Positions 13,040 through 40,296 of a stretch of 64,000 nt of DNA are shown here, piece by piece (the first letter of the stretch is position 1; each line of letters starts with the position of its first letter). The position numbers were made by a program, and so were the translations under genes. The stretch comes from a virus (taxonomy: Duplodnaviria > Heunggongvirae > Uroviricota > Caudoviricetes). Location of the stretch: positions 1-64,000 of the IMG/VR virus record IMGVR_UViG_3300015177_000008; one strand, written 5' to 3'. The notes below the pieces were generated by a model, which saw only the letters and a program-made list of their open reading frames with translations, was not told the origin of the DNA and did no database searches.

Positions 13040-13412
13040 ATATTTGCATCAGTTGCTCTTTGGCGTCAGGGTCTGCCTTATCCTGGCTTGGATCGTAGAC
13101 TTTATCTGTTACGACTGGTCTTCCAATCCTGAGTTGCAAACCCTCCATGAACGCCTTCACAGCCTCGCCATCCGCCTGGGACGCACGAGCGACTTGTAAG
13201 TTGCGGACATCCTCTTCCGCACGCAGACGGTCTATATTGCGACTGAGCATCCAGAACATCGTGAGAGGGATGTTCAATAGCTCTAATGGCGACACAGCGT
13301 AGTGAGCAACTACACGACTGAAATAGAATCCGAGATCTATTGAAACGGTCCTTGTCCCGGATTCATCGCGGGAAATTACTTTGCCCCTTCGCCAGCCGCT
13401 TTTTCGTTTTCT
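13026..13412 (-). CDS. T-like -1 frame extension of the tail assembly chaperone (G-T fusion product)
   Basis: Frame is open from about 13412 (by my translation) and is -1 relative to the G-like ORF that stops at 13376; conserved G/GT arrangement immediately upstream of the tape measure gene. Confidence 0.45.
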   Translation of the reverse strand, partial: RKRKSGWRRGKVISRDESGTRTVSIDLGFYFSRVVAHYAVSPLELLNIPLTMFWMLSRNIDRLRAEEDVRNLQVARASQADGEAVKAFMEGLQLRIGRPVVTDKVYDPSQDKADPDAKEQLMQIFGRG

Positions 13413-23920: not shown

Positions 23921-24811
23921 TTATGCCGGTAAAGCAATTTCTAACGGTTTATCCAAAGGTTGTTTGTCGAATGCCAGCAGTGGCAGCGTGTCAGGCAGTC
24001 GACGGCCAAAGTCAGGGTTTCGGTACACACCATACAACGGAGACGTAAAGCTCAGGTTGTGAATGTCCTTGAGCAGCTTCACAATGCTGGCCTCGTCCAC
24101 CAGACTGTCGGCAATGTCCTGAATCGTCGTGCCACGATTCCGCCCAGCTTTTGCCAGGGAACTGTTCTTGTGGTAGTCCGCCACCAGATCACGCAGTGCA
24201 CGGCGACGACGAGACTCGCTCATTGCGAACAACTCTTTGACGATCGCCTCGTTATCACCCGGGTCAGAACGGAAATGGCGCTGGAATACACGCAGTGCAC
24301 TTTCATAGCTCTTCGGTCGCTCAGGGCGGATGAACTTAAACCCTGCTTTCATGGCGAAGGGATTGTATTTGCTCATCGAGGACTGGATCTCAATGATTGG
24401 CCGGTCATGCATCCTGCTAACCAGGTTAATCATTCGATAAGAGACGCCTACGCCACGATACTGAGTATCCACAACTGAGCGACTGATCACCGCAAAGTTG
24501 TTATTCACGTACCGACCCCAGTACTGGTTAGCCACGGTGGTATTAGTGGTTGGTTTCAACTTAGGAAACATGCGGTGGCGAGGTGCCAACAGTAGTTTCG
24601 GGTAAGCCATAACCACGACGCCCACCAGACGGTCATCAAGTTCGCAGCGATAGTAAGTTGGCGCGAAAGGTTTGCCGTCTGTTTTGTAGTGAAGCGACTT
24701 AAGAGCGTGCCAGTCCTCTACAGTTCCCTTTGTAACAGTCATTCGCTCCAGAAAGTCCAGATGACGCGGAAACTCTTCAGGGCGGTAGCGTTTAATGATG
24801 ATGTCCGTCAT
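23921..24811 (-). CDS. GNAT-fold acetyl/acyltransferase domain protein with ~120-aa C-terminal extension
   Basis: GNAT motif A (VVDTQYRGVGVSYRMINL) followed by beta5-like NPFAMKAGFKFI; 4-nt overlap with upstream ATPase gene. Confidence 0.5.
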   Translation of the reverse strand: MTDIIIKRYRPEEFPRHLDFLERMTVTKGTVEDWHALKSLHYKTDGKPFAPTYYRCELDDRLVGVVVMAYPKLLLAPRHRMFPKLKPTTNTTVANQYWGRYVNNNFAVISRSVVDTQYRGVGVSYRMINLVSRMHDRPIIEIQSSMSKYNPFAMKAGFKFIRPERPKSYESALRVFQRHFRSDPGDNEAIVKELFAMSESRRRRALRDLVADYHKNSSLAKAGRNRGTTIQDIADSLVDEASIVKLLKDIHNLSFTSPLYGVYRNPDFGRRLPDTLPLLAFDKQPLDKPLEIALPA

Positions 24812-25473
24812 AAATGAACCTCATCATGACTACCATTGTGATATTCCACCTTCACGCGTTCTTTGTAGTGCTTGGTGATCTGCATATCCGGGCGCAGCGC
24901 GTTCTTCAGGTCTTCGTGAGTCGTCGCCACCATTACCGTCGCACCAACCTTTCGAGCGGCACGCTGGAGGTTAGATGCCACAACCTGAGCGGTTACACGG
25001 TCTAGAACAGCACCGAACTCGTCAGCAGCCCACACTTTAGCGCCTGACTCAATCAGTTTGGCAATCTTGAGACGATATTTCTGGCCGTCTGACATTTCAG
25101 AAGGCTTGCGAACAAACAGATATGCATCGTTCAGACCAGCCATAGATAACAACCCAAGCGCATCACTGGTCGTTTTGCCCAACTGATCGATGACGTTAAC
25201 CTCATTATCGAAGGTAAAATCATCGATGGAGGCTACAGAAAGCCCTTCATCCTTCATCTGGCGTTGCAACTCGCGCAGCACAACGGATTTGCCAGAACCG
25301 GATTGGCCGGTGATGTACACCACATCGCCCTGCTTCACTTCCAGCTCCAGATTGTCGTAAAGCGTCCACTCTTTTTCGTCCAGGCCAAGCCCGAACGACT
25401 CAGCGATTTCCAACGTGCGCGTGGTTTTATTTACGCGTGTCTGAAACGATACGTTGATGATGTATTTGCTCAT
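24808..25473 (-). CDS. stand-alone ABC-type ATPase
   Basis: Walker A GQSGSGKS, signature-like MSDGQKYRL, Walker B VWAADEF, H-loop ATTHEDL; no transmembrane domain. Confidence 0.6.
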   Translation of the reverse strand: MSKYIINVSFQTRVNKTTRTLEIAESFGLGLDEKEWTLYDNLELEVKQGDVVYITGQSGSGKSVVLRELQRQMKDEGLSVASIDDFTFDNEVNVIDQLGKTTSDALGLLSMAGLNDAYLFVRKPSEMSDGQKYRLKIAKLIESGAKVWAADEFGAVLDRVTAQVVASNLQRAARKVGATVMVATTHEDLKNALRPDMQITKHYKERVKVEYHNGSHDEVHL

Positions 25474-26138
25474 GCAGCCATCTCCCCGGAAGAGATCTTC
25501 TCCGCATATGCCACAAATGCGTCTACCCCGCTTTCTCCCGTCATTTCTTCCATGTGGGCAAGCAAATCACCAACAACAATGGCAGAGCCAGCAGGGAGCG
25601 TTTTAAAGCCCAATACGTCGACAACACGTACTTCTTCCGCTGCAACTTCACGACTGATCTCGGTGTGTTCATCCTTCTGTCGTTTAGTTTCTTCGCCAAG
25701 ATCGATAACTAGCGAATCGGTGTCCATTTCTTCTGTCATACTGCCAACGAGAACATTCAACTCACGCTCTTCAAAGCCGAAAACCTCGATATCGTCCAGA
25801 ACAAGCGACTCAAGCTCTTTCTGTAGCTTAATTGCATCGTAATCAATGCTGGCAAGTCGGTTATCTTCAAGGCGCTTCGCACGAACCTCGTCATCACTGA
25901 GATCATCGCGAACAATAACCGGTACGCGCTCAAGTCCAGCAAAAATTGCAGCCTCACGGCGGCCGTGGCCAGTAATAATTACGTCGTTCTTATCGACCGT
26001 AATTGGCTGGTCAAATCCGCGCTTTTTAATGGCTGCGGCCAGATCTCGGATCTGCTGTTCATCATGCTTTTTGGCATTCATCTCATAGGGAATAAGATCT
26101 GCCGGGTCGCGATATACGATTTCAAACTTTTTGGTCAT
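25470..26138 (-). CDS. ParB-like nuclease domain (ParB/Srx N-terminal domain) protein
   Basis: ITGHGRREAA motif; start moved to ATG at 26136-26138, which overlaps the stop of the upstream gene (TAATG). Confidence 0.6.
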   Translation of the reverse strand: MTKKFEIVYRDPADLIPYEMNAKKHDEQQIRDLAAAIKKRGFDQPITVDKNDVIITGHGRREAAIFAGLERVPVIVRDDLSDDEVRAKRLEDNRLASIDYDAIKLQKELESLVLDDIEVFGFEERELNVLVGSMTEEMDTDSLVIDLGEETKRQKDEHTEISREVAAEEVRVVDVLGFKTLPAGSAIVVGDLLAHMEEMTGESGVDAFVAYAEKISSGEMAA

Positions 26139-26836
26139 TACATACGCTCCTTGTAGTAGTCGACCAGCCACACCAGAGCCTCACCAGCGTTCTCCATTTC
26201 ATTACCGGTGTTAATAGCCTGCTCTTTGATGATGTTTTTTATGGTTTCTGCAACACGATCTGACGCATCGAAAGTTACTTTGAAGCGCATGGTCTGATGT
26301 TCCGCACCCACACGTTCGGTTTTCTCTCGTTTGTCGGTATCGACAGGCTCATCACTACCACGAGACAACGCCTCCAGTGCTTCAAGGTCGATTGCCGCCT
26401 CTTTTGCTAAAACCATCGAGATTTCGTCGTCATACGGGGCGATTTCAGACAGTTGATAGTCAAGTTCTGACTGAATTTCTTCAATGAAGCGTTGCAATGC
26501 GATTTGGTCGTCTTCACCGTATCGCTCGTTGTCCACCAGTGACATCTGTTTAGCTACGACATCGCTAATTTTGCCCACAGAAAGCACCGGAACCGTTGAA
26601 ATTCCTTGCTCAATAGCAGCACGCCAGCGATGTTCGCCGCCGAGGATTTCAAAAAATCCATCTTCAAGTTCACGAGCCAAAATTGGCTTAAAAAAGCCCA
26701 ATTTTTCGATAGAACCTTTCAGTTTTTCAAAATTCTGCGCACCAACCGAATTGGTGTTCCAGGTATTCGGGCGAAGGTTGGCAACATCAACCTGCAAAAT
26801 CGTGATTTTTACATCCATTTTATTGCTACAATCCAC
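26138..26836 (-). CDS. ParB-like nuclease domain protein (second paralogue)
   Basis: ILGGEHRWRAA motif; true start probably the internal Met at about 26818. Confidence 0.6.
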   Translation of the reverse strand: MDCSNKMDVKITILQVDVANLRPNTWNTNSVGAQNFEKLKGSIEKLGFFKPILARELEDGFFEILGGEHRWRAAIEQGISTVPVLSVGKISDVVAKQMSLVDNERYGEDDQIALQRFIEEIQSELDYQLSEIAPYDDEISMVLAKEAAIDLEALEALSRGSDEPVDTDKREKTERVGAEHQTMRFKVTFDASDRVAETIKNIIKEQAINTGNEMENAGEALVWLVDYYKERM

Positions 26837-26900: not shown

Positions 26901-28460
26901 ATGACTGTTCGGATTGTATCTAACGCAGTAAATGCGCTTATTTCTGGCGCAGATGACAAGGTAAAGCAACTGGTGCAGCAAATGTTGAGCTACGAAGTCG
27001 AGACTGGCGACTGGAAGGGCACAAGCACGATGTTCAACTGGAGTAAAAACTCGTTCCCTGCTGGCTTTGCCAAGCCTGTAGCGGCGAACTTGAACAAGGC
27101 GGGCATCAAATGTGTTCATATCCGCAAAGACAAAGCCCCGGCGCTTGGAAAGCCAAATCCGGCGGTTAACCCATTCCCATACAATCCTGATTATGCATAT
27201 CAGGATCAGGCTGTGGAAACACTAGTTCGCGAGGGAATGATGATTGCCCAGATCGCTACTGGTGGTGGGAAATCTAACGTTGCCTGCAAAGCAGCTGCAC
27301 GTATCGGTCGAATGACATTATTTTTAACAACCCGCTCTGTTCTGATGTTTCAAATGGCCGAAAACTTCCAGAGATCCATCGACTACCGCGCCGAAAATGG
27401 CGAACCGTGGTTAAAGGACCAAAAGGTTGGAGTCATTGGCTCGGGTGAGTTCCAGGTATCACGACATATCAACGTCGCTACAGTTCAAACTCTTGCAAGT
27501 TTCCTCGAAGAACCACCACGCGATGCAACACCAGATAAGAAAAGCTACCACCTCAAACGTCGGGAGTTGGTGAAACGCTTCCTTTCAAGTGTCTCTCTTC
27601 TTATTCTGGAAGAGGCGCATGAGTCTTCAGGCTCAAATTTCTATGACATCGCCAGATTATGTGTGAACGCAGACTATCGTCTGGCGCTTACAGCCACGCC
27701 GTTCATGAAGGATTCGACGGAAGCCAACATGCGCCTGATGGCGGTGGCCGGGCGAATTGAAATTAAAGTCACAGAAAAGTACCTGATTGATAGAGGCATT
27801 CTGGCAAAACCATACTTCCTTTATCATAAAGTTGCCTACAAGCCGGACGAGGCCAGAATCAAGGCAGAACTTGCCAACAAATACCTCAATTTTAGAGTAG
27901 GTATGAGCACTGCCTACCAAAAGGCTTATCAGTTGGGGATCGTGTATAATTTGGGACGTAATGAGGCCATTGTTCGCGAAGCATTGCTCTATAAGCAACA
28001 TTCTCTCAATTGTATGACTCTGGTTCGTCTTAAACGCCACGGGCAAATCCTGATGGAAATGATGAAAGAGTCCGGCCTTAGAGTTGACTTCATTTATGGG
28101 GAATCGAACCAGTCGACAAGGCAAGCAAAGCTGAACAGTTTAGCGTCTGGCGACATAGATGTTTTAATAGGCTCGACTATTCTGGATGTCGGTGTTGATG
28201 TGCCAAGCGTTGGTGCGGTCATTCTGGCTGGTGGTGGGAAAGCAGAAGTTGAAATGAGGCAGCGTGTCGGTCGTGGCTTACGAGCCAAGAAGAATCAGGC
28301 AAACGTGTGTTTTATCACTGATTTCATTGACACTAGCAACAAATACCTGTTGTCTCACTCTTATGAGCGAAAACACATCATCGACACCACACCTGGCTTT
28401 GCGGAAGGTGTATTGCCTGTTGATGGCGCATTCGATTTTGGAATTCTGAAACGAGATTAG
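26901..28460 (+). CDS. SF2 DEAD/DEAH-box helicase (ResIII-like plus helicase C-terminal domain)
   Basis: Walker A ATGGGKS, DExH ILEEAH, motif III LTATP, motif VI QRVGRGLR; TATAAT -10 at about 26856 overlapped by a TAAGTAA-tcac-TTACTTA palindrome. Confidence 0.8.
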   Translation: MTVRIVSNAVNALISGADDKVKQLVQQMLSYEVETGDWKGTSTMFNWSKNSFPAGFAKPVAANLNKAGIKCVHIRKDKAPALGKPNPAVNPFPYNPDYAYQDQAVETLVREGMMIAQIATGGGKSNVACKAAARIGRMTLFLTTRSVLMFQMAENFQRSIDYRAENGEPWLKDQKVGVIGSGEFQVSRHINVATVQTLASFLEEPPRDATPDKKSYHLKRRELVKRFLSSVSLLILEEAHESSGSNFYDIARLCVNADYRLALTATPFMKDSTEANMRLMAVAGRIEIKVTEKYLIDRGILAKPYFLYHKVAYKPDEARIKAELANKYLNFRVGMSTAYQKAYQLGIVYNLGRNEAIVREALLYKQHSLNCMTLVRLKRHGQILMEMMKESGLRVDFIYGESNQSTRQAKLNSLASGDIDVLIGSTILDVGVDVPSVGAVILAGGGKAEVEMRQRVGRGLRAKKNQANVCFITDFIDTSNKYLLSHSYERKHIIDTTPGFAEGVLPVDGAFDFGILKRD

Positions 28461-28462
28461 TT

Positions 28463-28741
28463 ATGAGCGAAAAAAAAACAACTTATTGCCAAGTGGCATT
28501 GTCTGATAAGGCCAATGAAAAACTTGGAAAATTTCAAATAAAACTCAAAGAGAAAAAAATCAAGATGTCTAAGGCTGAAGTTATCAATGCCATTCTGGAG
28601 ACGATGACTATGGCTGAATTTGACAAAGTCACATCTGCCGTTGGGGTTTCCGCTAAGACGCGTGAGAAAATCATGCGCATCTATGAAAACTCCAATATGA
28701 CAAAAAAAGATTTAGAGGAAATACTGAGCAGGTTGCCGTAA
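28463..28741 (+). CDS. small basic protein, possible ribbon-helix-helix regulator
   Basis: 92 aa, starts 3 nt after the helicase stop. Confidence 0.35.
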   Translation: MSEKKTTYCQVALSDKANEKLGKFQIKLKEKKIKMSKAEVINAILETMTMAEFDKVTSAVGVSAKTREKIMRIYENSNMTKKDLEEILSRLP

Positions 28742-28806
28742 CATTTCATATTTACCCCCTATCTACTAATTCTATGATGTGCTCACTTGTTAGAAAGGAG
28801 CACATC

Positions 28807-29373
28807 ATGAGTTGGTTAAAAGAATTATCATTTGTTGACACCACTGGCGCTAAGAAAAATCATTCTTTCTGGAAAGTCAGCGATCCTTCTGATTTTCTTG
28901 TTGGCGCTAATGCTGCTTTTGAATTGCTTAACTTTTATCAACGTTATCCTGAAATGAAACACAGTCCACTCCTGTACAGAATAACAAACGATATGAATAG
29001 GTCTGGTTTATTATCAAGTGAGTCAGCGAAAGGCTTTTTTAGCAAAATTACGCCACACATATCATTCGATGCAGCAAACGAAATTGATTATCTATCCACG
29101 AAACCTCAAGAACAATTATCTGTACCACCTGAGAAAAAAGAAAGACGAATTGCCAGCATTGAAAATATATCGAAAGAGCTTCGCACAACAACGTTGAGGC
29201 TGCTGAACTTTCTTACGCTACTTAATTGGATAGATGATCAAACATTGATTCCATCAACCGATGCGTTGGATAACAGAGTCCTTCGTCTAAACAAAAAATC
29301 GCAATTTGGTTTTGTGTTCACCAAAAAAGGTGAAGATTTAATCAAAAGAAAATATAGATTATTGAATGATTAA
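28807..29373 (+). CDS. hypothetical protein (AT-rich moron)
   Basis: Start set at ATG 28807 preceded by AGGAG; low GC. Confidence 0.4.
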   Translation: MSWLKELSFVDTTGAKKNHSFWKVSDPSDFLVGANAAFELLNFYQRYPEMKHSPLLYRITNDMNRSGLLSSESAKGFFSKITPHISFDAANEIDYLSTKPQEQLSVPPEKKERRIASIENISKELRTTTLRLLNFLTLLNWIDDQTLIPSTDALDNRVLRLNKKSQFGFVFTKKGEDLIKRKYRLLND

Positions 29374-29380
29374 TAGTCTA

Positions 29381-29428
29381 CATGCAGGTGTATGAGAGCA
29401 CCTGCATGTGACATTCGTCACATTTTTT
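29381..29428 (+). terminator. hairpin terminator
   Basis: CATGCAGGTG..CACCTGCATG stem, second short hairpin and T-run. Confidence 0.4.
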
Positions 29429-29513
29429 GAAATGTACACCTCCGGCTGAAAAAATTTCTTGATTGGCTGAACGATATTTGTAGGCTCCGCCTCCGAAGAA
29501 ATTCGGAGGATAT

Positions 29514-30647
29514 ATGCGTCAATTTATAAAAACGTGTGACCTAAGAAATATAATAGATGATATTGCATGTGATGAAAAATTATCCTTGATAAAACCGGCA
29601 GGTATATCAACGAATAATAATATAAACCTTTATTATTTACAATTAAAGAAAACTTCTCAACAGCACCCCATCATTATAAAAAAGAATGGGCCTAGAACGA
29701 AATCCTCTAACGGTCTGGTGACGAATCCGTATCCAATATTGACAGTCTTTAAAATGCTGGATGAAATAAACAATCAGCTTGGCGACCAAGAGGTTATTCC
29801 TGAAATTGTAGAAGCTTCAACCTGGGCAGGTGCAACCATTAACCTGACTGACGACGAAAATCTGAAAGAGTTCTTTAGCGAAAACGAGTTGAGAAAGAAA
29901 GTCGGCTATTCCTTTTCATTCAAAAGTAAAAAATCTATAGAACATTTTCTTCGTGTGTTAATTCAATATATAGAATCAGGGATTATCTCACAAGTAGAGA
30001 GCAGAAAGTTCTTTAGAACAAACAAAAAAAATGTCAAATTAAAAGAGATTTACAATCTTGCTCTAAAATCACAACATTCAAGAGGGCAAAACAGTGCTGA
30101 TGCTCTCAAATCACCTTTCTCGTTGAATAAGAAAGAGATTCATGCAGTCTCAGCCAAAGCAGAAGACAACGTAACTCAAGAAGAAATCAGCTACGACCTC
30201 CAGAAAGAAGAAGTTGAGGAATATATAGAGGGCGAAACAAGATTAATCCAGTCGCAACATCGTAGCCGCGTATCCGGGTTAAGGAATGACGTTCTGGCAA
30301 ACGCAGACTACAGGTGTCAACTATGTTGCAGAACGATGTCGGAAATATACGGCAAGGAAATTGACGGTAAAGAAACGAAAACGCTGCTACACGCTCACCA
30401 CATCATCCCACTTTCACAAGGCGAAGGTGCACGAAGCGTGAACCCAAAAACAGATCTGATTGCCGTCTGCCCTAGCTGTCACGCAATACTTCACATCAGC
30501 GGCAACAAGGAAGCTATACCACGCGAGCGATTTTATGAATTGCGCCAAAAAATTGTCGGCAACCTTCAAAAACAAGAAAACATAGACATAATGAACCTTG
30601 CATGTGATGAAATTAGCAAAAAAGAGAAGAACGAAAACGCCAATTAA
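29514..30647 (+). CDS. HNH endonuclease domain protein with unknown N-terminal domain
   Basis: C-terminal CxxC...HAHHIIP...N...CPSCH HNH/zinc-finger motif; GGAGG RBS; AT-rich. Confidence 0.7.
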   Translation: MRQFIKTCDLRNIIDDIACDEKLSLIKPAGISTNNNINLYYLQLKKTSQQHPIIIKKNGPRTKSSNGLVTNPYPILTVFKMLDEINNQLGDQEVIPEIVEASTWAGATINLTDDENLKEFFSENELRKKVGYSFSFKSKKSIEHFLRVLIQYIESGIISQVESRKFFRTNKKNVKLKEIYNLALKSQHSRGQNSADALKSPFSLNKKEIHAVSAKAEDNVTQEEISYDLQKEEVEEYIEGETRLIQSQHRSRVSGLRNDVLANADYRCQLCCRTMSEIYGKEIDGKETKTLLHAHHIIPLSQGEGARSVNPKTDLIAVCPSCHAILHISGNKEAIPRERFYELRQKIVGNLQKQENIDIMNLACDEISKKEKNENAN

Positions 30648-30769
30648 CGCTATCTACCTATAAATGTGAAACATGCCCTCGACAATACCAGAAAGATTTG
30701 TCGAGGGCATAGGACTTTCCCTATGTCTGAACGATTAAATGTTAACAGCAATTAAATATTTTGTATATG

Positions 30770-31570
30770 TTATTCTTCTGGTGGCACGACAAAATCATCG
30801 AGCTTATTCTTTTCGTCTCGAAGCAACTTGATTTCTTCTTCTGTTATGCATTTGTCATAATCTGTTTGTTCAGAATGGCACAGTGTAACCGCGAATGGAT
30901 AGCCGGTGTAAGACAGTCCTCTAACAGGTTCTAGTTCACCGTTATCTTTTTTCCTAAATTTGTAAAAGTCAGGAGTGTCATAATTGGTGACGCTAACAAG
31001 AGCATATTTATCATTTTCTCTTGCATACACTTCACTAACACCTCTCGATTCGCCCAACTCTCTACTCACATATGTCGAATCACTTGCAGCATCAAACACA
31101 GCCTGACCTAATGGAGTTTTTTTTAAATCATCTATTTTCTCTTTTTCCTTCCTGATATTAGATTCGTTTTCCAGATAAAGTTTCACACCATTTTCTTTAC
31201 ATGCTAGATTTTGGCGTTCAAAACGTAATCGTTCTCTTGCCGAGTTGGTATTTTTATCCATTGCAACGAATACAATCGGGTTACGTTCACGAACATCAAA
31301 GATGTGTGCATTGAATGCGGTCGCACCTGTATAGGCGTTCAAGACGTTTTTGCCATTCACCTCTCCACATACCATATATGAATAGCTATTTTCACCTAAC
31401 TGAATAGCTCGCATATTCGTGAACCGACCAGCATCAGGATCTAGCAGTGTAGAGCGAATATCCTTCTCGACCAGATTTATGGCTCGCTCTTCATCAGAAT
31501 CACAACCTGTTAATAGTAAAGCCGCTATTAACAATGCTAATGAGTATTTTTTATTCACCCCATTCTTCAT
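30770..31570 (-). CDS. lipoprotein (unknown function)
   Basis: Signal peptide with lipobox LLLTGC; AT-rich. Confidence 0.65.
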   Translation of the reverse strand: MKNGVNKKYSLALLIAALLLTGCDSDEERAINLVEKDIRSTLLDPDAGRFTNMRAIQLGENSYSYMVCGEVNGKNVLNAYTGATAFNAHIFDVRERNPIVFVAMDKNTNSARERLRFERQNLACKENGVKLYLENESNIRKEKEKIDDLKKTPLGQAVFDAASDSTYVSRELGESRGVSEVYARENDKYALVSVTNYDTPDFYKFRKKDNGELEPVRGLSYTGYPFAVTLCHSEQTDYDKCITEEEIKLLRDEKNKLDDFVVPPEE

Positions 31571-31672
31571 GAAACTTGTTCCATAATCAATTTTTGTTGG
31601 AATGTACGGTTAGTCTGTCTACGCATCATAGAGATGTATATAATGACCAAAAAAGACTTAAAAAGGTAGACT

Positions 31673-32194
31673 ATGGTTAAAGACATCACCTACGGCATTC
31701 CAGCAGAAGTCTGGCCACGAGACTACGAACATGCTGAAAACATACTTATGTTCTGGCGGAAAAACAACATTCCTGTAAGAGTCACGCTTGAAGACGGTCA
31801 GGTGTTTTGCATGTACGTTCAGGGGACAATGCCTTCCCGCAATAAGCTAGATTTATGCCCGCTTCCATATGATAAAGAAAATCGTATAAGACTCCCACTT
31901 GAGCGCATTAGCACAATTGAATCAGGTGTAATCGATGGCATTGCTCGCGAGTTCAAAGGTAGGCTAACAATACATCCAGACTATGTTGACAATCAGCCAT
32001 CACGTCGTGACTTTTTTAAGATATGTCGTCAGGCTTACCAAAACGGCAAATCTATAAGGGTCTACATGGCAGACGGTCGTGAAATAGAAGGGATATCAAG
32101 AGGCGTTGATGCTTGCCAGGTCACTCTTAAGTTAGAAGACGGCAGAAAAACACTTGTATTCTTCGATTGGGTTGAACGAATTTTACCGTTTTGA
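31673..32194 (+). CDS. hypothetical protein with two internally similar halves
   Basis: 173-aa ORF; repeated V-T-L-EDG-type segments. Confidence 0.4.
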   Translation: MVKDITYGIPAEVWPRDYEHAENILMFWRKNNIPVRVTLEDGQVFCMYVQGTMPSRNKLDLCPLPYDKENRIRLPLERISTIESGVIDGIAREFKGRLTIHPDYVDNQPSRRDFFKICRQAYQNGKSIRVYMADGREIEGISRGVDACQVTLKLEDGRKTLVFFDWVERILPF

Positions 32195-32197
32195 GTT

Positions 32198-32494
32198 ATG
32201 AAATCGATACTATTGACATCTTTATTTTTAGTTTACTCAATTTCGGCCAATGCAAAGGATGATATCGCAATTATTCAGTCGCTGATGAATGACGTATGCT
32301 CAACGTCTCAGAATGTACCAGTTTGCATGTTTAAACTTTCAGCAGCTGTAAAATTAGGGATAAACATTGGTAAGACCGCTCAACTATGTGAACAAGTGGA
32401 AAATTATGAACCATGTGAATCGAACAACTCTTCTGTGCAGTTCGTTGATGCGTTATTTGACACCAATCGTAAGGCTGTAGAGTCAGTCCGATAA
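32198..32494 (+). CDS. small secreted Cys-containing protein
   Basis: N-terminal signal peptide MKSILLTSLFLVYSISANA; 4 Cys. Confidence 0.5.
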   Translation: MKSILLTSLFLVYSISANAKDDIAIIQSLMNDVCSTSQNVPVCMFKLSAAVKLGINIGKTAQLCEQVENYEPCESNNSSVQFVDALFDTNRKAVESVR

Positions 32495-32685
32495 ATGTAT
32501 AAGGGTAATAACCGGCTAAGTCCGGTTATTTTTTTAAATGCCATTTATTAAATACACCTCCAATTCTACTCCGTATAAACATATAAGGTTATAAGCCGGA
32601 ATTAATTATTTATTTAGGGAACACCTTCGACGATCTCGCTTTTATTTCTAGGACTTTCGTCCCTGCAAAAAACTAAAAAAAACAC

Positions 32686-32713
32686 TTGCAATCTTTTTTT
32701 GCGTATCGATAAT
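32686..32713 (+). promoter_or_regulatory. sigma70-type promoter (TTGCAA-16 nt-GATAAT)
   Basis: Near-consensus hexamers about 70 nt upstream of ATG 32788. Confidence 0.4.
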
Positions 32714-32787
32714 TGAACTCGTCGAAAGCGAACTGGCTAACGACAGTAAAAAATAAATTCATTTTAATTTTTGTAAGGAATAAAACC

Positions 32788-33438
32788 ATGACCAATATTA
32801 TCTTATCTAAAAAATCCATCGTTGAAGCTGCGCGTGTTGTAACAAATGAATTAAAAGAAAAAGCAGATCTGGCAACTCAAACATATAACGAATATTATAA
32901 AAATGGTACGCACACCAAAGCAGATAAAGCAAATATGCAAGCTGCTACCACTAAACTTGCTTACTTCATCAACAACGTTGTAAACGCTGTTGAAGACGAA
33001 AAATTATGCTCTGTTTTCTACTATGCGATTAAAGCAAGCAAACAAGCGCCAGAAGTATTTTTCCGTGATGCAATGACTAATAGTTATTCACTGGAAAAAC
33101 TGGTTTATCTGGTTAAATCCATTAAAGCTGGTAAATGCGTTTATTCCGTCGCTGATATGTCAGGATCTCGTGTATTCGCTTTAATCGATATGATTAACGA
33201 CGAGATCGACACGTTCACTAATGGCGCTGTTTTCGATTTAATGAATGAAGCTAAAAAAGCGTGCGAAATTAAATTGGACGCTGGCTATACTCAAGCCAAC
33301 CAGTTGATCAATCTTTGCGAACGTCTTGGACTTGTTGAGAAAGTCAAAGGAATGGGAAGCGCAAAAGCTGGTACGCAGCAATATCGCTTTATTAAAAATG
33401 ATTTCTATAACTATCTGGCTGATGCTTTCAAAGCGTAA
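32788..33438 (+). CDS. hypothetical protein (moron with own promoter and terminator)
   Basis: Start set at ATG 32788 with AAGGA RBS; strong promoter upstream, terminator downstream. Confidence 0.5.
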   Translation: MTNIILSKKSIVEAARVVTNELKEKADLATQTYNEYYKNGTHTKADKANMQAATTKLAYFINNVVNAVEDEKLCSVFYYAIKASKQAPEVFFRDAMTNSYSLEKLVYLVKSIKAGKCVYSVADMSGSRVFALIDMINDEIDTFTNGAVFDLMNEAKKACEIKLDAGYTQANQLINLCERLGLVEKVKGMGSAKAGTQQYRFIKNDFYNYLADAFKA

Positions 33439-33450
33439 TTAATGGAATCT

Positions 33451-33473
33451 GGCGCCCACTATGGGCGCTTTTA
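33451..33473 (+). terminator. intrinsic terminator
   Basis: GCGCCCA-cta-TGGGCGC hairpin plus TTTT. Confidence 0.55.
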
Positions 33474-33485
33474 AGGAGCTTAATC

Positions 33486-33716
33486 ATGTTTATGATTATC
33501 GCTGGCGTTAACGTGCGCAATGAATATTTTGTTAATCGCATCGCTGGGATCGCTGGTTACGCTGGGCGCGCAGTCGAGCTTATAGATGAAACGACGCGCA
33601 AAATTGACTTATTGAGCGACCAGGAGCGAAAAAAAGCAGACGTGAATGACGCTGATATATTTTTAATGTTAAAAGCGTTTGTAGAAATGGGATTTGAAAT
33701 CAGTTTACATAAATAA
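33486..33716 (+). CDS. hypothetical 76-aa protein
   Basis: ORF between two near-identical terminators. Confidence 0.35.
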   Translation: MFMIIAGVNVRNEYFVNRIAGIAGYAGRAVELIDETTRKIDLLSDQERKKADVNDADIFLMLKAFVEMGFEISLHK

Positions 33717-33720
33717 AATC

Positions 33721-33746
33721 GAGCGCCCACTATGGGCGCTTTTTTC
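33721..33746 (+). terminator. intrinsic terminator (duplicate of the 33451 hairpin)
   Basis: GCGCCCACTATGGGCGC plus TTTTTT. Confidence 0.55.
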
Positions 33747-33767
33747 GTTTCCAATACTTCCACCATA

Positions 33768-33793
33768 ACGCGCCAATGATGGCGCTTTTTTTT
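33768..33793 (+). terminator. intrinsic terminator
   Basis: GCGCCA-atga-TGGCGC plus T8. Confidence 0.5.
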
Positions 33794-34199
33794 ATTGTCT
33801 TTGACTCACTCCAACAACATAAAAATAAGCGCAAAAATAACGCCATAGACGAGCTTTTATATCCTTACCAGCATATACCCATTACTTAGCGCATTAACGC
33901 GCTTAAAACGCGTTATATTGCGTTATGGTGTATGGTTAATCATTGGCTTTTAGTCTTGCTTTATGATCCGCGTTTATTTGTCGGCGCGGATCGGCATTTT
34001 GTTTTGTTCCGTATCCGCTCGCGTATTATGTGCGCGTGATTTTTCACATAATCACACCACTTAATCACGTATGTGATTACGCTACGAAAGAAATCTGGAT
34101 GTCTCAGGCGACGAAAGTCATCATGATTTCCCCGCTCACCTGTCCGACAACCGCTGGTTGGATTCCACCAGCTTCCCGATGTTTTTTCTACATAAAGGC

Positions 34200-34325
34200 G
34201 AATGCAGCCGTTTCCCGAAAAAATCCTGGCCGTTTCCCGTCGGCTCATGAATACGTTCCTCGCCGTTTCTGAAAATTTCCCTGCGGCAGCTGGTGGCTAT
34301 AGAGAAAGGGCCGTTTCTGGCCCTC
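34200..34325. repeat. iteron-like direct repeats (GCCGTTTCCCGAAAA-type, 4 copies)
   Basis: Copies at about 34206, 34228, 34261 and 34309, spaced ~20-45 bp apart. Confidence 0.4.
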
Positions 34326-34332
34326 TTCTCAG

Positions 34333-34815
34333 TTACACGCCATCAAGGATGTGGATGCGGTTGCTTGCGTATACATTCAACATAAAGTTAGCGCAAAACA
34401 GTTTCCATGTATCAACGCCAGCGGCATACGTAATGTTTTTGCATTTTATTGCATTGTTGGCGATCCGCATCCCCTGCGATACTGCTTTATCGTCGGAAAA
34501 TTTGAACGACGATTGAGTTTTAATCCAGACAGAAATCTGCGTAGCGAACTCAATCAGCTTGGACTGGCAGAATCGCCCGGAGCGCACCGGAAAGACGAAC
34601 GTTCCGAATCCAGAATTTACCACATACGCTTTCTCAAATACCCGCGAGTAACGACGATTGCCAATGATGTCGCGTGCAATAATGCATTTTTCTTGTGCTG
34701 ACAGTTCTACCGTCTCATTGTCGCGCCATGCACCAAGTACTCGTTTTTCAATGTCAGAGAACGTTACAGCGATATTGCCATGTGCGGGTGCGTTTACAGT
34801 AGCGATAAAATTCAT
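34333..34815 (-). CDS. hypothetical protein
   Basis: 160-aa ORF preceded by conserved promoter/leader. Confidence 0.45.
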   Translation of the reverse strand: MNFIATVNAPAHGNIAVTFSDIEKRVLGAWRDNETVELSAQEKCIIARDIIGNRRYSRVFEKAYVVNSGFGTFVFPVRSGRFCQSKLIEFATQISVWIKTQSSFKFSDDKAVSQGMRIANNAIKCKNITYAAGVDTWKLFCANFMLNVYASNRIHILDGV

Positions 34816-35018: not shown

Positions 35019-35951
35019 TCAACTGGAATAAGAATAATCTGTATTGATGAGTAAAGGCGCATCATCCACTAATCCTGACAGAAACCAGCGAGCAGTCCCG
35101 TAAAGTTCAAGGGCGTCAAGATAGCCTTCATGCAGTGCACCAACCCCAAACACATCATTATCAGCCATAGCTACCGCATCTACGGCCAGATACTCTATGA
35201 GTTCTTCCATGCTTTTTATATTTATATCGTCTAAATTCTCCAGTTTGTTCTCAATCTCATTGAAAGGGATATCCGGCATCGAATGCACTATGATTTTTGG
35301 CACATCATTCTCATTATTTACCTCCACAATAACAATTCCATACTCTGTAAAAAGAGAACTAAAGAATCTATTAAACTCTAAATTAACAAAAGATGCCGAA
35401 CCATTTAAACGCTCAACATATGGGGAACGAAAAGCTGAATGTAAATTATTTTTTCTACTTTCCTTGCCATATTCTATAATCAACTCTTTATTTTTGATCT
35501 TCTCGAGTATTCCACCTAGCTCCTCTACAATTAAAGCGCCAGTGTTTTCTCTTTCTTTTGATACTATAGTTGAAAGACTGATCAAGGCTTCTGTTATACT
35601 GTTATTAGAAACGATCAGATGAAATAGCTCCAGCATAGCCAATCGACCACTATCAGTGAACGTAACAAAGTTTATTGCATCTATTTCATTTTTAATCGCA
35701 AGAAACTCACATTTATTTTTGATGTTTTCCCGAATTGACATCTCCACACGCTGTCTTATTCTCAACACCTGCTTAAAGTAAGTATTTTCAAAACATTCGA
35801 CAGAAAATGTCTTCTTACCATCATTCACAATAGCCAATCTGTATTCATATTCAAGACCATTAAGTTCAAGGCAATCACTGTCATATTGGGACCCATCTTT
35901 AACTGAAAACAATTCACTAATGTCAATTTGTCCCAAAAATACTGGTTTCAT
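35019..35951 (-). CDS. hypothetical protein (AT-rich)
   Basis: 310-aa ORF, low GC; followed by conserved GGCCACC..GGTGGCC hairpin. Confidence 0.5.
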   Translation of the reverse strand: MKPVFLGQIDISELFSVKDGSQYDSDCLELNGLEYEYRLAIVNDGKKTFSVECFENTYFKQVLRIRQRVEMSIRENIKNKCEFLAIKNEIDAINFVTFTDSGRLAMLELFHLIVSNNSITEALISLSTIVSKERENTGALIVEELGGILEKIKNKELIIEYGKESRKNNLHSAFRSPYVERLNGSASFVNLEFNRFFSSLFTEYGIVIVEVNNENDVPKIIVHSMPDIPFNEIENKLENLDDINIKSMEELIEYLAVDAVAMADNDVFGVGALHEGYLDALELYGTARWFLSGLVDDAPLLINTDYSYSS

Positions 35952-38939: not shown

Positions 38940-39800
38940 TCTTCGCTATACATGTTGTGTTTTATCTGTCTCAACCTCTCTATAGGCGTTAATGCTCACT
39001 CCTTCCAGAATGTTCTATACGGCGACTATTTCTGTTGGTGAATTGGGTGTGTTGTTTTCTCTGTCGGTGTATGTGGTTTCGTTCGTTTTGCGGTGGTTCT
39101 TCTATGGGGTGTTCTCGTCGTTTTGGTGATTGTTCTTCTCCGTGTATGGAGTAATGGCAGGTGGGCGATTCCTTTCGTTGTTGTGTTTGAGTTGTTTGTC
39201 TGGAGTGTGTGAAAGGCTTTTGTAGTTATTCGTGTATTGGGTAATGGCGTTTCCCGTGATTGTTCTGTTTCGTGTCTTTTGGGATTGAGAGAAACCTTGC
39301 GGTTACAGGCTTCGTTGGGGTTTCAGTGATTCTGGTGTTTCTTCGCTGTTTGGGGAATGGCGTGTCGTGGGTATCGCGCGTATGAATGTTTTCGGATTGC
39401 CTGTGAAAGTTAGGTTGGTTGTCCGGTAGCCTGGGAAGAAGAGGTGGGTCTTTTCGGTAGCCTGCCATAAAGAGGTTGGTTGTTTTTGGTAATGGCATAT
39501 GTGTTATTTAGTTGTTTTGTTATACCTGAAAATAAGTTGTTTATATGGTTGTGTAACGCAACGGGAGCGATTTTGAGCGTGTGTTTTTGTTGGTAGTGTG
39601 TTTGGTCGTCTGCGGTGAAAATTGGACGCTGTGGCGCTGTCTGCTGCGTAGAATTACGGGTATAAGCAGTGATGTGTGAAAACGTCAATTTTTTAGACCA
39701 AATCGGGTGAAAGCGTTGATGTTTCGTTGATCTGTTATTCAGTTGTTTTCTTGATTGTATAAACAACCATAACTTATTGATATTTAAGGATATGATTGCG
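38940..39800. repeat. GT-rich (minus strand CA-rich) ORF-free region with ~100-bp degenerate repeats
   Basis: Repeated GG(G/A)GTAATGGC(G/A) cores at about 39150, 39245, 39355 and 39490; strong strand compositional bias; contains copies of the conserved leader motif. Confidence 0.35.
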
Positions 39801-39897
39801 GGTATGGAAGGGGAGTAGTGGCGATCAACGGATTCTTATAGAAAAGAATCAAATTGTGACCGCCATTATCAACTGATTGATTTGTTTACTTGTGTAG

Positions 39898-40296
39898 TCA
39901 GTTCTCGAAATGAATAGGGTCAACGTAATGCCGCTCACCGCTTTTACCATTACACAGCACTGTAACTTTCGCCTTTTCACTCCAGGCTGAGTATAGAAAG
40001 TTCCCATCAGGTTGAACATGGTAACGAGAGAAGTAAACATCGCCGACTGAGGCGTCGAACATGTTCCTATCTTTTTCACTTTGGGCAAGCGAGATGGATA
40101 TCACCGAATTCCCATTTGGGGAAACGATTTTAAATTTATTCCCTATATCCATAACAATATTGTAACCAGGTAATTGCTTGTGTGTTTCCGGATCTATTTT
40201 CATGCATCGTGGGTACACGATAGTGTTAGGCTCTTCAACTGGCGTGGCATTAGCAGAAAGCACAAAAAATATTAGTGCCAATGGTGCATATTTCAT
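39898..40296 (-). CDS. secreted protein (unknown function)
   Basis: Signal peptide MKYAPLALIFFVLSANA. Confidence 0.5.
   Translation of the reverse strand: MKYAPLALIFFVLSANATPVEEPNTIVYPRCMKIDPETHKQLPGYNIVMDIGNKFKIVSPNGNSVISISLAQSEKDRNMFDASVGDVYFSRYHVQPDGNFLYSAWSEKAKVTVLCNGKSGERHYVDPIHFEN

What the first reader, a model, noticed from the sequence alone, without database searches (positions are those of the whole stretch)
26901..33793. Divergent helicase operon and AT-rich moron island encoding an HNH nuclease protein, a lipoprotein and secreted proteins
The SF2 helicase (26901..28460) is followed within 3 nt by a small basic RHH-like protein, then by low-GC genes: a 189-aa unknown (28807..29373), a 377-aa protein with a C-terminal HNH nuclease/zinc-finger motif (29514..30647), a 266-aa lipoprotein on the opposite strand, a secreted 98-aa Cys protein, and a gene (32788..33438) with a near-consensus promoter and duplicated terminators. 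The sharp GC drop and individual promoters and terminators indicate horizontally acquired cargo; a helicase plus HNH nuclease pairing is reminiscent of nuclease-helicase defence modules, and lipoproteins of this kind often mediate superinfection exclusion.
Basis: partly seen in the sequence, partly recalled or inferred. Interest (0 to 1): 0.6.

Follow-up and report, generated by a model that had tools for sequence, protein, structure and literature searches.

The report
Phage-plasmid accessory arm with rare nuclease
This stretch is the helicase-side arm of a common SSU5-type phage-plasmid of E. coli, in which conserved phage genes alternate with small swap-in slots; one slot holds a very rare DNA-cutting enzyme that is not partnered with the helicase, so the region is mostly ordinary.

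Summary
The window is an SSU5/pLF82(Cyrano)-type phage-plasmid, 100% identical to plasmid ECdb0033_p7 of E. coli UID2309220033.

The region is not one acquired island.
- **Variable genes.** The 188-aa protein (178 plasmids), the lipoprotein (61), the 98-aa secreted protein (246), the 76-aa protein and the HNH gene sit in slots with fixed junctions.

The HNH gene is full-length in 1 PLSDB plasmid and in 2 of 5426 complete E. coli genomes. pLF82-type relatives carry a 1035-bp in-frame deletion scar between two 15-bp repeats.

The HNH protein joins a McrA-type HNH/zinc-finger domain to a basic, hypervariable N-domain. That domain occurs only at this locus of SSU5-like elements and is usually a stand-alone protein.

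No helicase-nuclease system is supported. I read the HNH protein as a modular accessory nuclease, possibly used in conflict between mobile elements (inferred). Published RNA-seq shows the lipoprotein, FljA and helicase/92-aa orthologues are expressed in lysogens. Interest is modest.

The parts
26901..28460 (+). SF2 DNA helicase (519 aa), UvsW/dhlA-like phage helicase. Conserved core gene, transcribed divergently from the ParB-ParB-ABC ATPase operon.
   Evidence: Pfam ResIII, DEAD and Helicase_C. phrog_16, 2.8e-94. tblastn finds 1558 phage records and 1002 plasmids, 788 of them at 80% identity or more. Present in all helicase-anchored loci. The Cyrano orthologue is expressed at about 4.8x background in the lysogen.
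28463..28741 (+). 92-aa basic protein (pI 9.5), starting 2 nt after the helicase stop. Conserved partner of the helicase; function unknown.
   Evidence: phrog_1466, 1e-45. Found after the helicase in 91 loci at 36-100% identity. The orthologue CYRAN_117 is 12x above background in the LF82 lysogen. No RHH hit in Pfam or PDB profile searches.
28807..29373 (+). 188-aa protein (p189 family, phrog_13473). Variable gene that usually precedes an N-domain gene; function unknown.
   Evidence: 178 PLSDB plasmids. 31 of 91 loci carry it, and 24 of these also carry the N-domain family. No Pfam or PDB match. Strong SD AAGGAG before the ATG at 28807.
29380..29423 (+). Tandem hairpins and a U-run after the 188-aa gene (terminator).
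   Evidence: MFE -27.7 kcal/mol, z -5.6; terminator scan.
29490..29509 (+). Perfect 8-bp hairpin CCUCCGAA/UUCGGAGG that pairs the Shine-Dalgarno sequence of the HNH ORF.
   Evidence: strand folding z -2.2; sequence. The cassette junction at 29486/29487 lies just upstream.
29514..30173 (+). N-terminal domain of the HNH protein (about 220 aa, basic, pI 9.4). A hypervariable cassette specific to phage-plasmids, with a YgaC/YjbR-like alpha+beta fold.
30174..30647 (+). Linker plus McrA-type HNH (beta-beta-alpha-Me) nuclease domain with a CX2C...CX2C zinc site. All catalytic and zinc residues are invariant.
   Evidence: Pfam HNH, 3e-6. PDB sequence hit to EcoKMcrA 6ghc, E 0.008. Invariant C268, C271, H295, H296, N310, C319, C322, H323, H327. 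6320 distant relatives match this domain only.
29563..29577 (+). Left copy of the 15-bp direct repeat TTGCATGTGATGAAA. The right copy is at 30598-30612. Recombination between the two explains the 1035-bp in-frame deletion of the HNH gene in pLF82/Cyrano-type relatives.
   Evidence: Exact repeat search. blastn junctions against Cyrano, L026 and L030. Most of the 85 other matching E. coli genomes, including every one listed, cover only 32% of 29300-30800.
30673..30710 (.). 13-bp-stem hairpin between the convergent HNH and lipoprotein genes (shared terminator).
   Evidence: MFE -25.1 kcal/mol, z -4.6.
30770..31570 (-). 266-aa lipoprotein (lipobox LLTGC, Asp at +2). Variable gene that fills the 'exported protein' position just before the FljA-like gene.
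   Evidence: phrog_20234 and phrog_2320. 61 PLSDB plasmids. Relatives only on contigs of phage-plasmid size. Other elements have a different lipoprotein or secreted protein at this position. Orthologue CYRAN_115 rises from log2 4.8 (LB overnight) to 9.2-9.4 (DMEM, macrophage).
31673..32194 (+). 173-aa FljA-family protein ('repressor of phase-1 flagellin').
   Evidence: PF03614, 3e-82 over the full length; weak Hfq-like hit. 831 plasmids, including 341 Klebsiella and 62 Yersinia. Present in nearly all loci that extend far enough. Orthologue CYRAN_114 is expressed at log2 7-8 in growing lysogens.
32198..32494 (+). 98-aa secreted protein with 4 Cys. A 299-bp insertion/deletion directly after the FljA-like stop codon; not annotated in the RefSeq record.
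   Evidence: phrog_9536, 2.5e-30. Precise indel 32193-32491 relative to Cyrano and the Klebsiella-type loci. 246 plasmids at 47-100% identity. Absent from the PGAP annotation. A terminator follows at 32507-32530.
32788..33438 (+). 216-aa protein (phrog_1513). Conserved core gene of unknown function, silent in the Cyrano lysogen.
   Evidence: CYRAN_113 sits at the detection floor in LB. Promoter-like TTGCAA-16-GATAAT at 32686-32713.
33486..33716 (+). 76-aa protein (phrog_1585), variable. Followed by a repeated terminator hairpin at 33722-33741 and a further hairpin at 33770-33785.

Best explanation
**What the interval is (shown).** 26901-33793 is the helicase-side arm of an SSU5/pLF82-type phage-plasmid. 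It is not a single acquired island and not a helicase-nuclease system. It is a conserved scaffold interrupted by short replacement slots with fixed junctions.
- Scaffold: a UvsW-like SF2 helicase, a 92-aa protein that starts 2 nt after the helicase stop codon (translational coupling inferred), an FljA-family protein, a 216-aa protein and a 160-aa protein.
- Junctions: about 28711-28745, 29486/7, 30173/4, about 31680, and 32192/32492.
- Slot contents: genes specific to phage-plasmids. They are a 188-aa protein, an 'N-domain' gene, one exported protein (here the 266-aa lipoprotein), the 98-aa secreted protein and the 76-aa protein.

**The HNH protein (shown).** It is the rare 'armed' form of the N-domain gene. 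A basic, hypervariable N-domain with a YgaC/YjbR-like fold is fused through an acidic linker to an intact McrA-type HNH/zinc-finger nuclease. The gene has a terminator on each side and a hairpin that pairs its Shine-Dalgarno sequence. It is dispensable: nearly all relatives lack it, and pLF82-type elements lost it through a 1035-bp deletion between 15-bp repeats.

**How it probably works (inferred).**
- The N-domain supplies target recognition, most likely of nucleic acid.
- The HNH domain cuts DNA.
- The protein therefore acts as an accessory nuclease in conflict with other phages or plasmids, in the manner of prophage-encoded McrA.
- The helicase serves the element's own replication or recombination.
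- The lipoprotein and the other exported proteins are lysogen-expressed surface-conversion genes.
For: **Identity of the element.**: 100% identity to NZ_JBTZOT010000003.1 and about 95% to Cyrano/pLF82.

**Core versus variable.**
- tblastn matrix over 97 loci and slot architectures.
- PLSDB counts: helicase 1002, FljA-like 831, sec98 246, p189 178, lipoprotein 61, HNH 1.
- The HNH gene is in 2 of the 87 E. coli genomes that match this locus.

**Helicase.** It belongs to a phage helicase family (phrog_16; 1558 phage records).

**Junctions and deletion scar.**

**HNH domain intact and McrA-like.**

**N-domain.**
- All relatives lie in the same slot of SSU5-like elements.
- Stand-alone forms exist, and homology is confirmed by hhalign at 95.6% and 94.5% probability.
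- Fold. Basic pI.
- N- and C-terminal identities disagree: 36% against 97%, and 21% against 90%.

**Insulation of the gene.**

**Expression of orthologues in the LF82 lysogen.** PMC9928086 Table 1 and S1 Table.

**No known defence-system membership.**. A DefenseFinder survey of SSU5 phage-plasmids, as far as the searched passages go, mentions no HNH or helicase system (bioRxiv 10.1101/2025.09.12.675607).
Against: - No functional data exist for the HNH protein, the N-domain, the 188-aa protein or the lipoprotein.
- Expression of the HNH gene itself is unknown, because Cyrano lacks it.
- Its near-universal loss could mean it is neutral or harmful rather than useful.
- The full-length structural model is poor over the HNH part (pLDDT 55).
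- The loci that contain the HNH gene were found by searching with it, so frequencies rest on the unbiased sets.
Confidence: 0.6

Rival explanations
1. One reading: the helicase and the HNH nuclease form a two-gene nuclease-helicase anti-phage defence module acquired horizontally.
For: Both lie on the same strand within 1.1 kb. The helicase gives PADLOC hits to PbeA (5e-24) and a weak hit to TIGR04095 dnd_restrict_1. Every HNH homologue found lies downstream of this helicase.
Against: - The helicase is a core gene of about 1000 plasmids and a member of a phage helicase family, while the HNH is in one plasmid and in none of 86 helicase-anchored loci.
- Two genes and a strong terminator separate them.
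- The PADLOC and NCBIfam hits cover only the generic SF2 core and fall far below the family cut-off (61 bits against 600).
- The helicase sequence is the same (98% identity) with or without the HNH gene.
Confidence: 0.04
2. The HNH gene is a free-standing homing endonuclease that spreads by cutting HNH-less alleles of related phage-plasmids.
For: Sporadic presence in otherwise collinear genomes that are 95-98% identical. It is an independent transcription unit. PHROG hits to 'HNH endonuclease' families of phages.
Against: - HNH-less alleles are not clean empty sites. They keep the first 64 and last 50 bp of the ORF, joined at a 15-bp repeat, which indicates decay.
- The family occupies a single locus only, in both the E. 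coli-type and the Klebsiella-type clades.
- Its N-domain is homologous to stand-alone proteins at the same locus, which argues for diversification in place.
- The HNH is C-terminal and of McrA type. From my own knowledge, phage homing HNH enzymes usually have the opposite domain order.
- A frequency of 2 in 87 is low for an actively homing gene.
Confidence: 0.1
3. The N-domain proteins, with or without HNH, serve the phage-plasmid's own life cycle (for example as a DNA-binding regulator, or as a nuclease for host DNA degradation or recombination in the lytic cycle) rather than conflict between elements.
For: - The locus lies between the replication/recombination helicase and a conserved FljA-family regulator.
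- The N-domain is basic, with weak structural similarity to the DNA-binding double-wing domain of T4 MotA.
- The neighbouring p189 orthologue is only weakly expressed in the lysogen.
Against: - The gene is absent from about three quarters of the elements, and 11 loci have an empty slot.
- Extreme allelic divergence and cassette swapping are unusual for a housekeeping regulator.
- Losing the HNH part is compatible with a viable, inducible phage: Cyrano forms virions (PMC9928086).
Confidence: 0.2

Closest known systems
EcoKMcrA, the HNH type IV restriction endonuclease of the e14 prophage (PDB 6ghc)
   Same: A C-terminal beta-beta-alpha-Me HNH with a CX2C...CX2C zinc site. It is the only PDB sequence hit (E 0.008). 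A target-recognition domain sits N-terminal to the nuclease. It is encoded by a prophage-type element as a dispensable accessory gene (my own knowledge for e14).
Phage moron and accessory-gene hotspots, for example the lambdoid lom/bor and cor loci and the morons defined in LF82 prophages (PMC9928086)
   Same: Small AT-rich genes with their own terminators sit between conserved genes and vary between close relatives. Exported or lipoprotein products are expressed in the lysogen.
   Different: Here several of the AT-rich genes (92-aa, FljA-like, 216-aa) are themselves core genes. No homology to Cor, Llp, Bor or other characterised exclusion lipoproteins was found.
T4 UvsW and the SPO1/Twort-like dhlA phage SF2 helicases
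   Same: ResIII, DEAD and Helicase_C core; phrog_16; annotated as 'UvsW helicase' in Cyrano.
   Different: Only about 22-37% identity to those phage helicases. Here it is expressed in the plasmid (lysogenic) state and followed 2 nt later by a conserved 92-aa protein of unknown function.
Salmonella FljA, post-transcriptional repressor of phase-1 flagellin fliC (PF03614)
   Same: Full-length match to the Pfam family (274.9 bits).
   Different: It is conserved in phage-plasmids of Klebsiella and Yersinia pestis, hosts that make no flagella (my own knowledge), so its target here is probably not fliC. It is not linked to fljB or hin.

Membership tests
McrA-like type IV (modification-dependent) HNH restriction endonucleases | Beta-beta-alpha-Me HNH catalytic motif with a CX2C...CX2C zinc site | tested here: met
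   Pfam HNH 27.7 bits against a cut-off of 21.4. Aligns to the McrA 6ghc HNH. C268, C271, H295, H296, N310, C319, C322, H323 and H327 are invariant in 5 homologues.
McrA-like type IV (modification-dependent) HNH restriction endonucleases | An N-terminal domain homologous to a known reader of modified DNA (McrA-N, SRA, PUA-like) | tested here: not met
McrA-like type IV (modification-dependent) HNH restriction endonucleases | Cleavage that depends on DNA modification and restricts modified phage or plasmid DNA | not testable with these tools
   Needs biochemistry or plating assays.
Nuclease-helicase defence systems (PbeABCD/Dnd restriction, Hachiman, Gabija and similar) as modelled in PADLOC | Helicase and nuclease inherited together as one module | tested here: not met
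   Helicase in 1002 plasmids, HNH in 1. 0 of 86 helicase-anchored loci carry the HNH domain.
Nuclease-helicase defence systems (PbeABCD/Dnd restriction, Hachiman, Gabija and similar) as modelled in PADLOC | Full-length HMM matches of the components to system models | tested here: not met
   The PbeA hit covers only the SF2 core (profile positions 253-635 of 672). dnd_restrict_1 scores 61 bits against a cut-off of 600. Neighbouring genes have no significant hits.
Free-standing HNH homing endonucleases | Presence/absence polymorphism with an intact empty target site in endonuclease-less alleles | tested here: not met
   The polymorphism is present, but HNH-less alleles carry an internal-deletion scar that keeps both ends of the ORF.
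Free-standing HNH homing endonucleases | Family members scattered over different insertion sites and genomes | tested here: not met
   All five full-length clusters among 5.8 billion proteins lie in the same slot.
FljA / Flag1_repress (PF03614), for ORF 31673-32194 | Full-length match above the Pfam gathering score | tested here: met
   274.9 bits against a cut-off of 24, profile positions 1-170 of 170.
FljA / Flag1_repress (PF03614), for ORF 31673-32194 | Represses fliC translation | not tested
   Its conservation in phage-plasmids of Klebsiella and Y. pestis, hosts without flagella (my own knowledge), argues for another target.
Bacterial lipoproteins, and superinfection-exclusion lipoproteins (Cor, Llp), for ORF 30770-31570 | Signal peptide with a lipobox L-x-G/A-C | tested here: met
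   MKNGVNKKYSLALLIAALLLTGC|DSD, read directly from the sequence. No dedicated predictor was run.
Bacterial lipoproteins, and superinfection-exclusion lipoproteins (Cor, Llp), for ORF 30770-31570 | Homology to a characterised exclusion lipoprotein | tested here: not met
   No Pfam, NCBIfam or PADLOC hit. PHROG families 20234 and 2320 have unknown function. All homologues are 'hypothetical'.
Ribbon-helix-helix DNA-binding proteins, for ORF 28463-28741 | Detectable similarity to RHH families or structures | tested here: inconclusive
   No RHH family among the Pfam hits up to E 10 for 8 family members, and no RHH chain in a PDB profile search. No structure was predicted.

The most novel reading that the evidence does not exclude
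The N-domain family (fused and stand-alone forms; phrog_29155, 25050 and 31250) would be a previously undescribed recognition module, exclusive to phage-plasmids and kept as several deeply diverged alleles at one locus. In its rare 'armed' form it would direct a McrA-type HNH nuclease against specific competitors, meaning other phages or rival SSU5-like elements. In its common 'unarmed' form it would bind the same class of target without cutting. That would make it a new sensor fold for type IV-like or exclusion nucleases, with an armed/unarmed polymorphism.
Probability: 0.2. Interest if true: 0.6.

Novelty: new member of a known kind. Interest (0 to 1): 0.3.

Why it matters
- SSU5-type phage-plasmids are widespread in clinical Enterobacteriaceae: about 800-1000 plasmids in PLSDB, including pHCM2 of S. 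Typhi, pMT1 of Y. pestis and pLF82. Their accessory genes are almost entirely unannotated.
- This analysis separates the conserved genes from the replaceable ones around the helicase and gives exact slot junctions.
- It shows that low GC is a poor guide to recent acquisition in this family.
- It removes a tempting but wrong 'helicase plus nuclease defence system' call.
- It leaves three testable leads:
  - a rare modular HNH nuclease built on a hypervariable domain;
  - a position that always holds an exported protein and is expressed in lysogens and inside macrophages;
  - an FljA-family regulator conserved even where the host has no flagella.

Tried and rejected
- **Helicase-HNH system.** Rejected on distribution and on PADLOC/NCBIfam results.
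- **Homing endonuclease.** Disfavoured because of the deletion scar and the single-locus distribution.
- **Packaging-associated HNH (HK97 gp74-like).** Rejected because the gene is absent from more than 99% of relatives, lies on the opposite strand several kb from the terminase, and is much larger.
- **p189 as a specific partner or immunity protein of the N-domain.** Disfavoured: p189 stays 98% identical while the N-domain allele changes to 36% identity.
- **p189 with a KilAC/ANT-like C-terminus.** This was only my visual impression. Pfam scans of 10 family members and a PDB profile search gave nothing.
- **RHH fold for the 92-aa protein.** No support.
- **N-domain as an acidic DNA mimic or anti-restriction protein.** Rejected, because pI is 7.2-9.4.
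- **Rfam.** No RNA family anywhere in the window.
- **Repeats.** Repeats in the intergenic regions 32490-32800 and 33700-34340 showed nothing beyond the terminator hairpins.
- **Literature.** Searches linking fljA to phage-plasmids, and searches on YgaC/DUF2002 function, found nothing useful.

Full report
**Source and setting.** Megablast of 26901-33793 finds SSU5-like phage-plasmids. Escherichia phage Cyrano (pLF82) matches at 95.7% identity over 81% of the query, and 774 PLSDB plasmids from Klebsiella, Escherichia, Enterobacter, Yersinia and Salmonella also match. A search of complete E. coli genomes gives a 100% match to plasmid ECdb0033_p7 of E. coli UID2309220033 (blood isolate, Bangkok). 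Its PGAP annotation agrees with the ORFs listed here, except that it does not call the 98-aa gene. To the left, on the minus strand, lies an operon of two ParB_N proteins, an ABC-type ATPase and a 296-aa protein. It leads towards the terminase genes. The helicase is transcribed divergently from that operon across a 64-bp gap.

**Check of the observation.** All ORFs exist at the stated coordinates.
- The helicase has ResIII, DEAD and Helicase_C domains.
- The 92-aa ORF starts 2 nt after the helicase stop codon.
- The 377-aa protein has a C-terminal HNH motif with two CX2C pairs.
- The 266-aa protein has the lipobox LLTGC, and the 98-aa protein has a signal-peptide-like N-terminus and four cysteines.
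- GC of 28463-33793 is 0.384 against 0.458 for the window, the lowest 5.3-kb stretch.
- Terminator hairpins are real and partly duplicated.

Four corrections are needed.
- The '189-aa' protein is 188 aa.
- The promoter before 32788 matches 9 of 12 positions, and promoter-like sites are not enriched over shuffles.
- An RHH fold for the 92-aa protein finds no support.

**Core versus cargo.** I anchored 86 loci on the helicase (80 from IMG/VR, 6 from GTDB genomes), added 11 loci found through the HNH protein or by DNA similarity, and scored every protein by tblastn.
- Present in essentially all loci that extend far enough: the 296-aa protein, the ABC ATPase, both ParB proteins, the helicase (69-99% identity), the FljA-like protein (35-96%), the 216-aa protein and the 160-aa protein. 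The 92-aa protein is found in all but the five most distant loci (L092-L097).
- Patchy: the 188-aa protein, the lipoprotein, the 98-aa protein and the 76-aa protein.
- Essentially unique to this plasmid: a 310-aa protein at 35019-35951.

PLSDB counts agree:

| Gene | Plasmids with a match |
|---|---|
| Helicase | 1002 (788 at 80% identity or more, plus Acinetobacter phage-plasmids at about 42%) |
| FljA-like | 831 |
| 98-aa secreted | 246 |
| 188-aa | 178 |
| Lipoprotein | 61 |
| HNH, full length | 1 |

The helicase also belongs to a large family of phage helicases (phrog_16; 1558 phage records annotated as UvsW, dhlA or DNA helicase). The core genes for the 92-aa (GC 0.376), FljA-like (0.435) and 216-aa (0.372) proteins are AT-rich too. 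Low GC is therefore a property of this arm, not a mark of recent acquisition.

**Slots.** blastn against close and distant relatives shows sharp, recurring junctions.
- Homology stops at about 28711-28745 (end of the 92-aa gene) in elements that have only a small lipoprotein there.
- It stops at 29486/7 in two different alleles (L006 and L018).
- It resumes at 30173/4 (L006) or at about 31680 (start of the FljA-like gene).
- 32193-32491, the 98-aa gene, is a precise indel.

Clustering the ORFs between the helicase and the FljA-like gene in 91 loci gives one recurring order: the 92-aa gene, then optionally the 188-aa gene (31 loci), then optionally an N-domain gene (28 loci, 24 of them together with the 188-aa gene). 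In most loci one exported protein follows; 11 loci have only the 92-aa gene in this slot. That last position is filled by one of the following:
- a 145-154-aa lipoprotein (phrog_890; 42 loci);
- a 196-aa protein with a signal peptide (phrog_18942; 18 loci);
- the 266-aa lipoprotein found here (phrog_20234 and 2320; 11 loci);
- a 118-aa secreted protein that shares phrog_2320 (7 loci).

**The HNH protein.** A search of 5.8 billion proteins returns only five clusters. All are encoded in the same slot of SSU5-like elements of E. coli type or Klebsiella type.
- The C-terminal 150-odd residues are almost invariant and carry all zinc and catalytic residues.
- The only PDB sequence hit is EcoKMcrA.
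- 6320 distant relatives match the HNH domain only.
- The N-terminal part, about 220 aa, is very divergent and its similarity pattern disagrees with that of the C-terminal part:

| Pair | N-domain identity | C-terminal identity |
|---|---|---|
| window vs P0002 | 36% | 97% |
| P0003 vs P0004 | 21% | 90% |
| P0002 vs P0003 | 64% | 67% |

(All.) The N-domain is thus a swapped or long-maintained cassette.

The same domain exists as stand-alone proteins of 136-204 aa at the same position in 19 of the helicase-anchored loci. A profile search finds 17 further clusters, all 'hypothetical' and all from Enterobacteriaceae, most on contigs of phage-plasmid size. hhalign links the fused forms to the 191-204-aa forms (95.6% probability, E 1e-8) and those to the 162-aa forms (94.5%, E 8e-8). 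The direct comparison of fused with 162-aa forms is weak (23%).

**Loss of the gene.** Cyrano, L026 and L030 lack 29578-30597 but keep the first 64 and last 50 bp of the ORF. The junction is the 15-bp repeat TTGCATGTGATGAAA, present at 29563-29577 and 30598-30612. The two copies are 1035 bp apart, so the deletion is in frame. Of 5426 complete E. coli genomes, 87 match 29300-30800, all on plasmids. Only two carry the gene. Most of the others, including every one listed, cover 32% of the query, as expected for this scar. The gene is therefore ancestral in this sub-lineage, dispensable, and almost always lost.

**Gene signals.** A 12-bp-stem hairpin plus a second hairpin with a U-run follows the 188-aa gene (z -5.6). 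A weak promoter-like site (TTGAAA-17-AAAAAT with TG) lies at 29427-29455. An 8-bp perfect hairpin pairs the GGAGG Shine-Dalgarno sequence of the HNH ORF. A 13-bp-stem hairpin separates the convergent HNH and lipoprotein genes.

**Expression (published data).** In the LF82 lysogen (PMC9928086, Table 1 and S1 Table):
- the 92-aa orthologue CYRAN_117 is 12x above the prophage background and is listed as a moron;
- the helicase is at about 4.8x;
- the lipoprotein rises from log2 4.7-5.0 (LB overnight) to 9.2-9.4 (DMEM at 6 h, macrophage at 1 h);
- the FljA-like gene rises from 4.2 to about 8;
- the 188-aa gene is weak;
- the 216-aa, 76-aa and ParB genes sit at the detection floor.

So the helicase/92-aa operon, the lipoprotein and the FljA-like gene are active in the plasmid (lysogenic) state.

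**Interpretation.** The structure described above is shown by the data. The following points are inferred.
- The HNH protein is a modular nuclease whose N-domain sets the target and whose McrA-type domain cuts DNA. It is used as an accessory weapon against other mobile DNA. The precedent is McrA of prophage e14 (my own knowledge).
- The helicase works in the element's own replication or recombination.
- The exported proteins are surface-conversion genes. Superinfection exclusion is possible but untested.
- The FljA-like protein probably regulates an RNA other than fliC, because it is conserved in elements of Klebsiella and Y. pestis, hosts that make no flagella (my own knowledge).

No component belongs to a known defence system. 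In the passages I searched, a DefenseFinder survey of 1227 SSU5-type contigs mentions no HNH or helicase system.

**Verdict.** Variable accessory genes are present and some behave like morons. The region is not one acquired island, and no helicase-nuclease system is supported. The finding is a new member of a known kind: a prophage accessory HNH nuclease with an undescribed N-terminal domain, in an accessory-gene hotspot. Interest is modest at 0.3. The most novel reading not excluded is that the N-domain is a new recognition module with armed and unarmed alleles.

Noticed in passing
window 31673-32194 (+): A full-length FljA-family gene ('repressor of phase-1 flagellin', PF03614, 3e-82) is a core gene of SSU5-like phage-plasmids. 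It is found in 831 PLSDB plasmids, including 341 from Klebsiella and 62 from Yersinia, hosts that make no flagella (my own knowledge). Its target is therefore probably not fliC. It is expressed in the LF82 lysogen. No paper in the library links fljA to phage-plasmids.
   Followed up: partly
window 35019-35951 (-): A 310-aa, very acidic (pI 4.6), low-GC (0.359) protein with no Pfam, PHROG or PADLOC hit. Among 97 related loci it is found only in this plasmid; L010 has a 25%-identical 324-aa protein at the same position. This is another rare cargo slot, just outside the finding.
   Followed up: partly
window 32198-32494 (+): The 98-aa secreted Cys protein is not annotated in the RefSeq record of the identical plasmid. 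It is nonetheless conserved as a family (phrog_9536; 246 plasmids at 47-100% identity), so a gene was probably missed.
   Followed up: yes
window 23921-26836 (-): A conserved operon of two ParB_N-domain proteins, an ABC-type ATPase and a 296-aa protein (called 'ABC-type ATPase fused to acetyltransferase'-like in Cyrano). It runs divergently from the helicase and is silent in the LF82 lysogen. It has no ParA partner and no PADLOC system match. Its function is unknown.
   Followed up: partly
window 44811-49061 (-) and 49597-50085 (-): A 1416-aa inverse autotransporter of the invasin/intimin type (IAT_beta, 3.6e-109, with Invasin_D3 and Big_1 repeats) lies next to a very AT-rich stretch (GC 0.31-0.35) that encodes a MarR-family regulator. 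This is probably adhesin or virulence cargo of the phage-plasmid.
   Followed up: partly
window 39001-40000: A composition anomaly: GC skew +0.34 and AT skew -0.32 over 1 kb, with no long ORF at 39000-39900. A 132-aa signal-peptide protein follows at 39898-40296 on the minus strand. Not explained.
   Followed up: no
window 33452-33470, 33722-33741, 33770-33785: The same terminator hairpin (GGCGCCCACTATGGGCGC) is used after both the 216-aa and the 76-aa genes, and a third GC hairpin with a T-run follows. This suggests the 76-aa gene was inserted together with a copy of the terminator.
   Followed up: partly
L008 1-5344 (-): In one Klebsiella-type contig the gene call upstream of the helicase is a 2599-aa product that combines ParB_N with tail-tip (GpJ-like) domains. 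It is either a large deletion that fused the ParB gene to a tail gene, or a misassembly.
   Followed up: no
L018, L019, L022, L028, L037, L038 (about 12619-13107) and L069, L051 (about 12574-13188): Stand-alone N-domain proteins (162 aa and 191-204 aa; phrog_25050 and phrog_29155) occupy the HNH position in many E. coli-type and Klebsiella-type phage-plasmids, with no trace of an HNH remnant downstream.
   Followed up: yes
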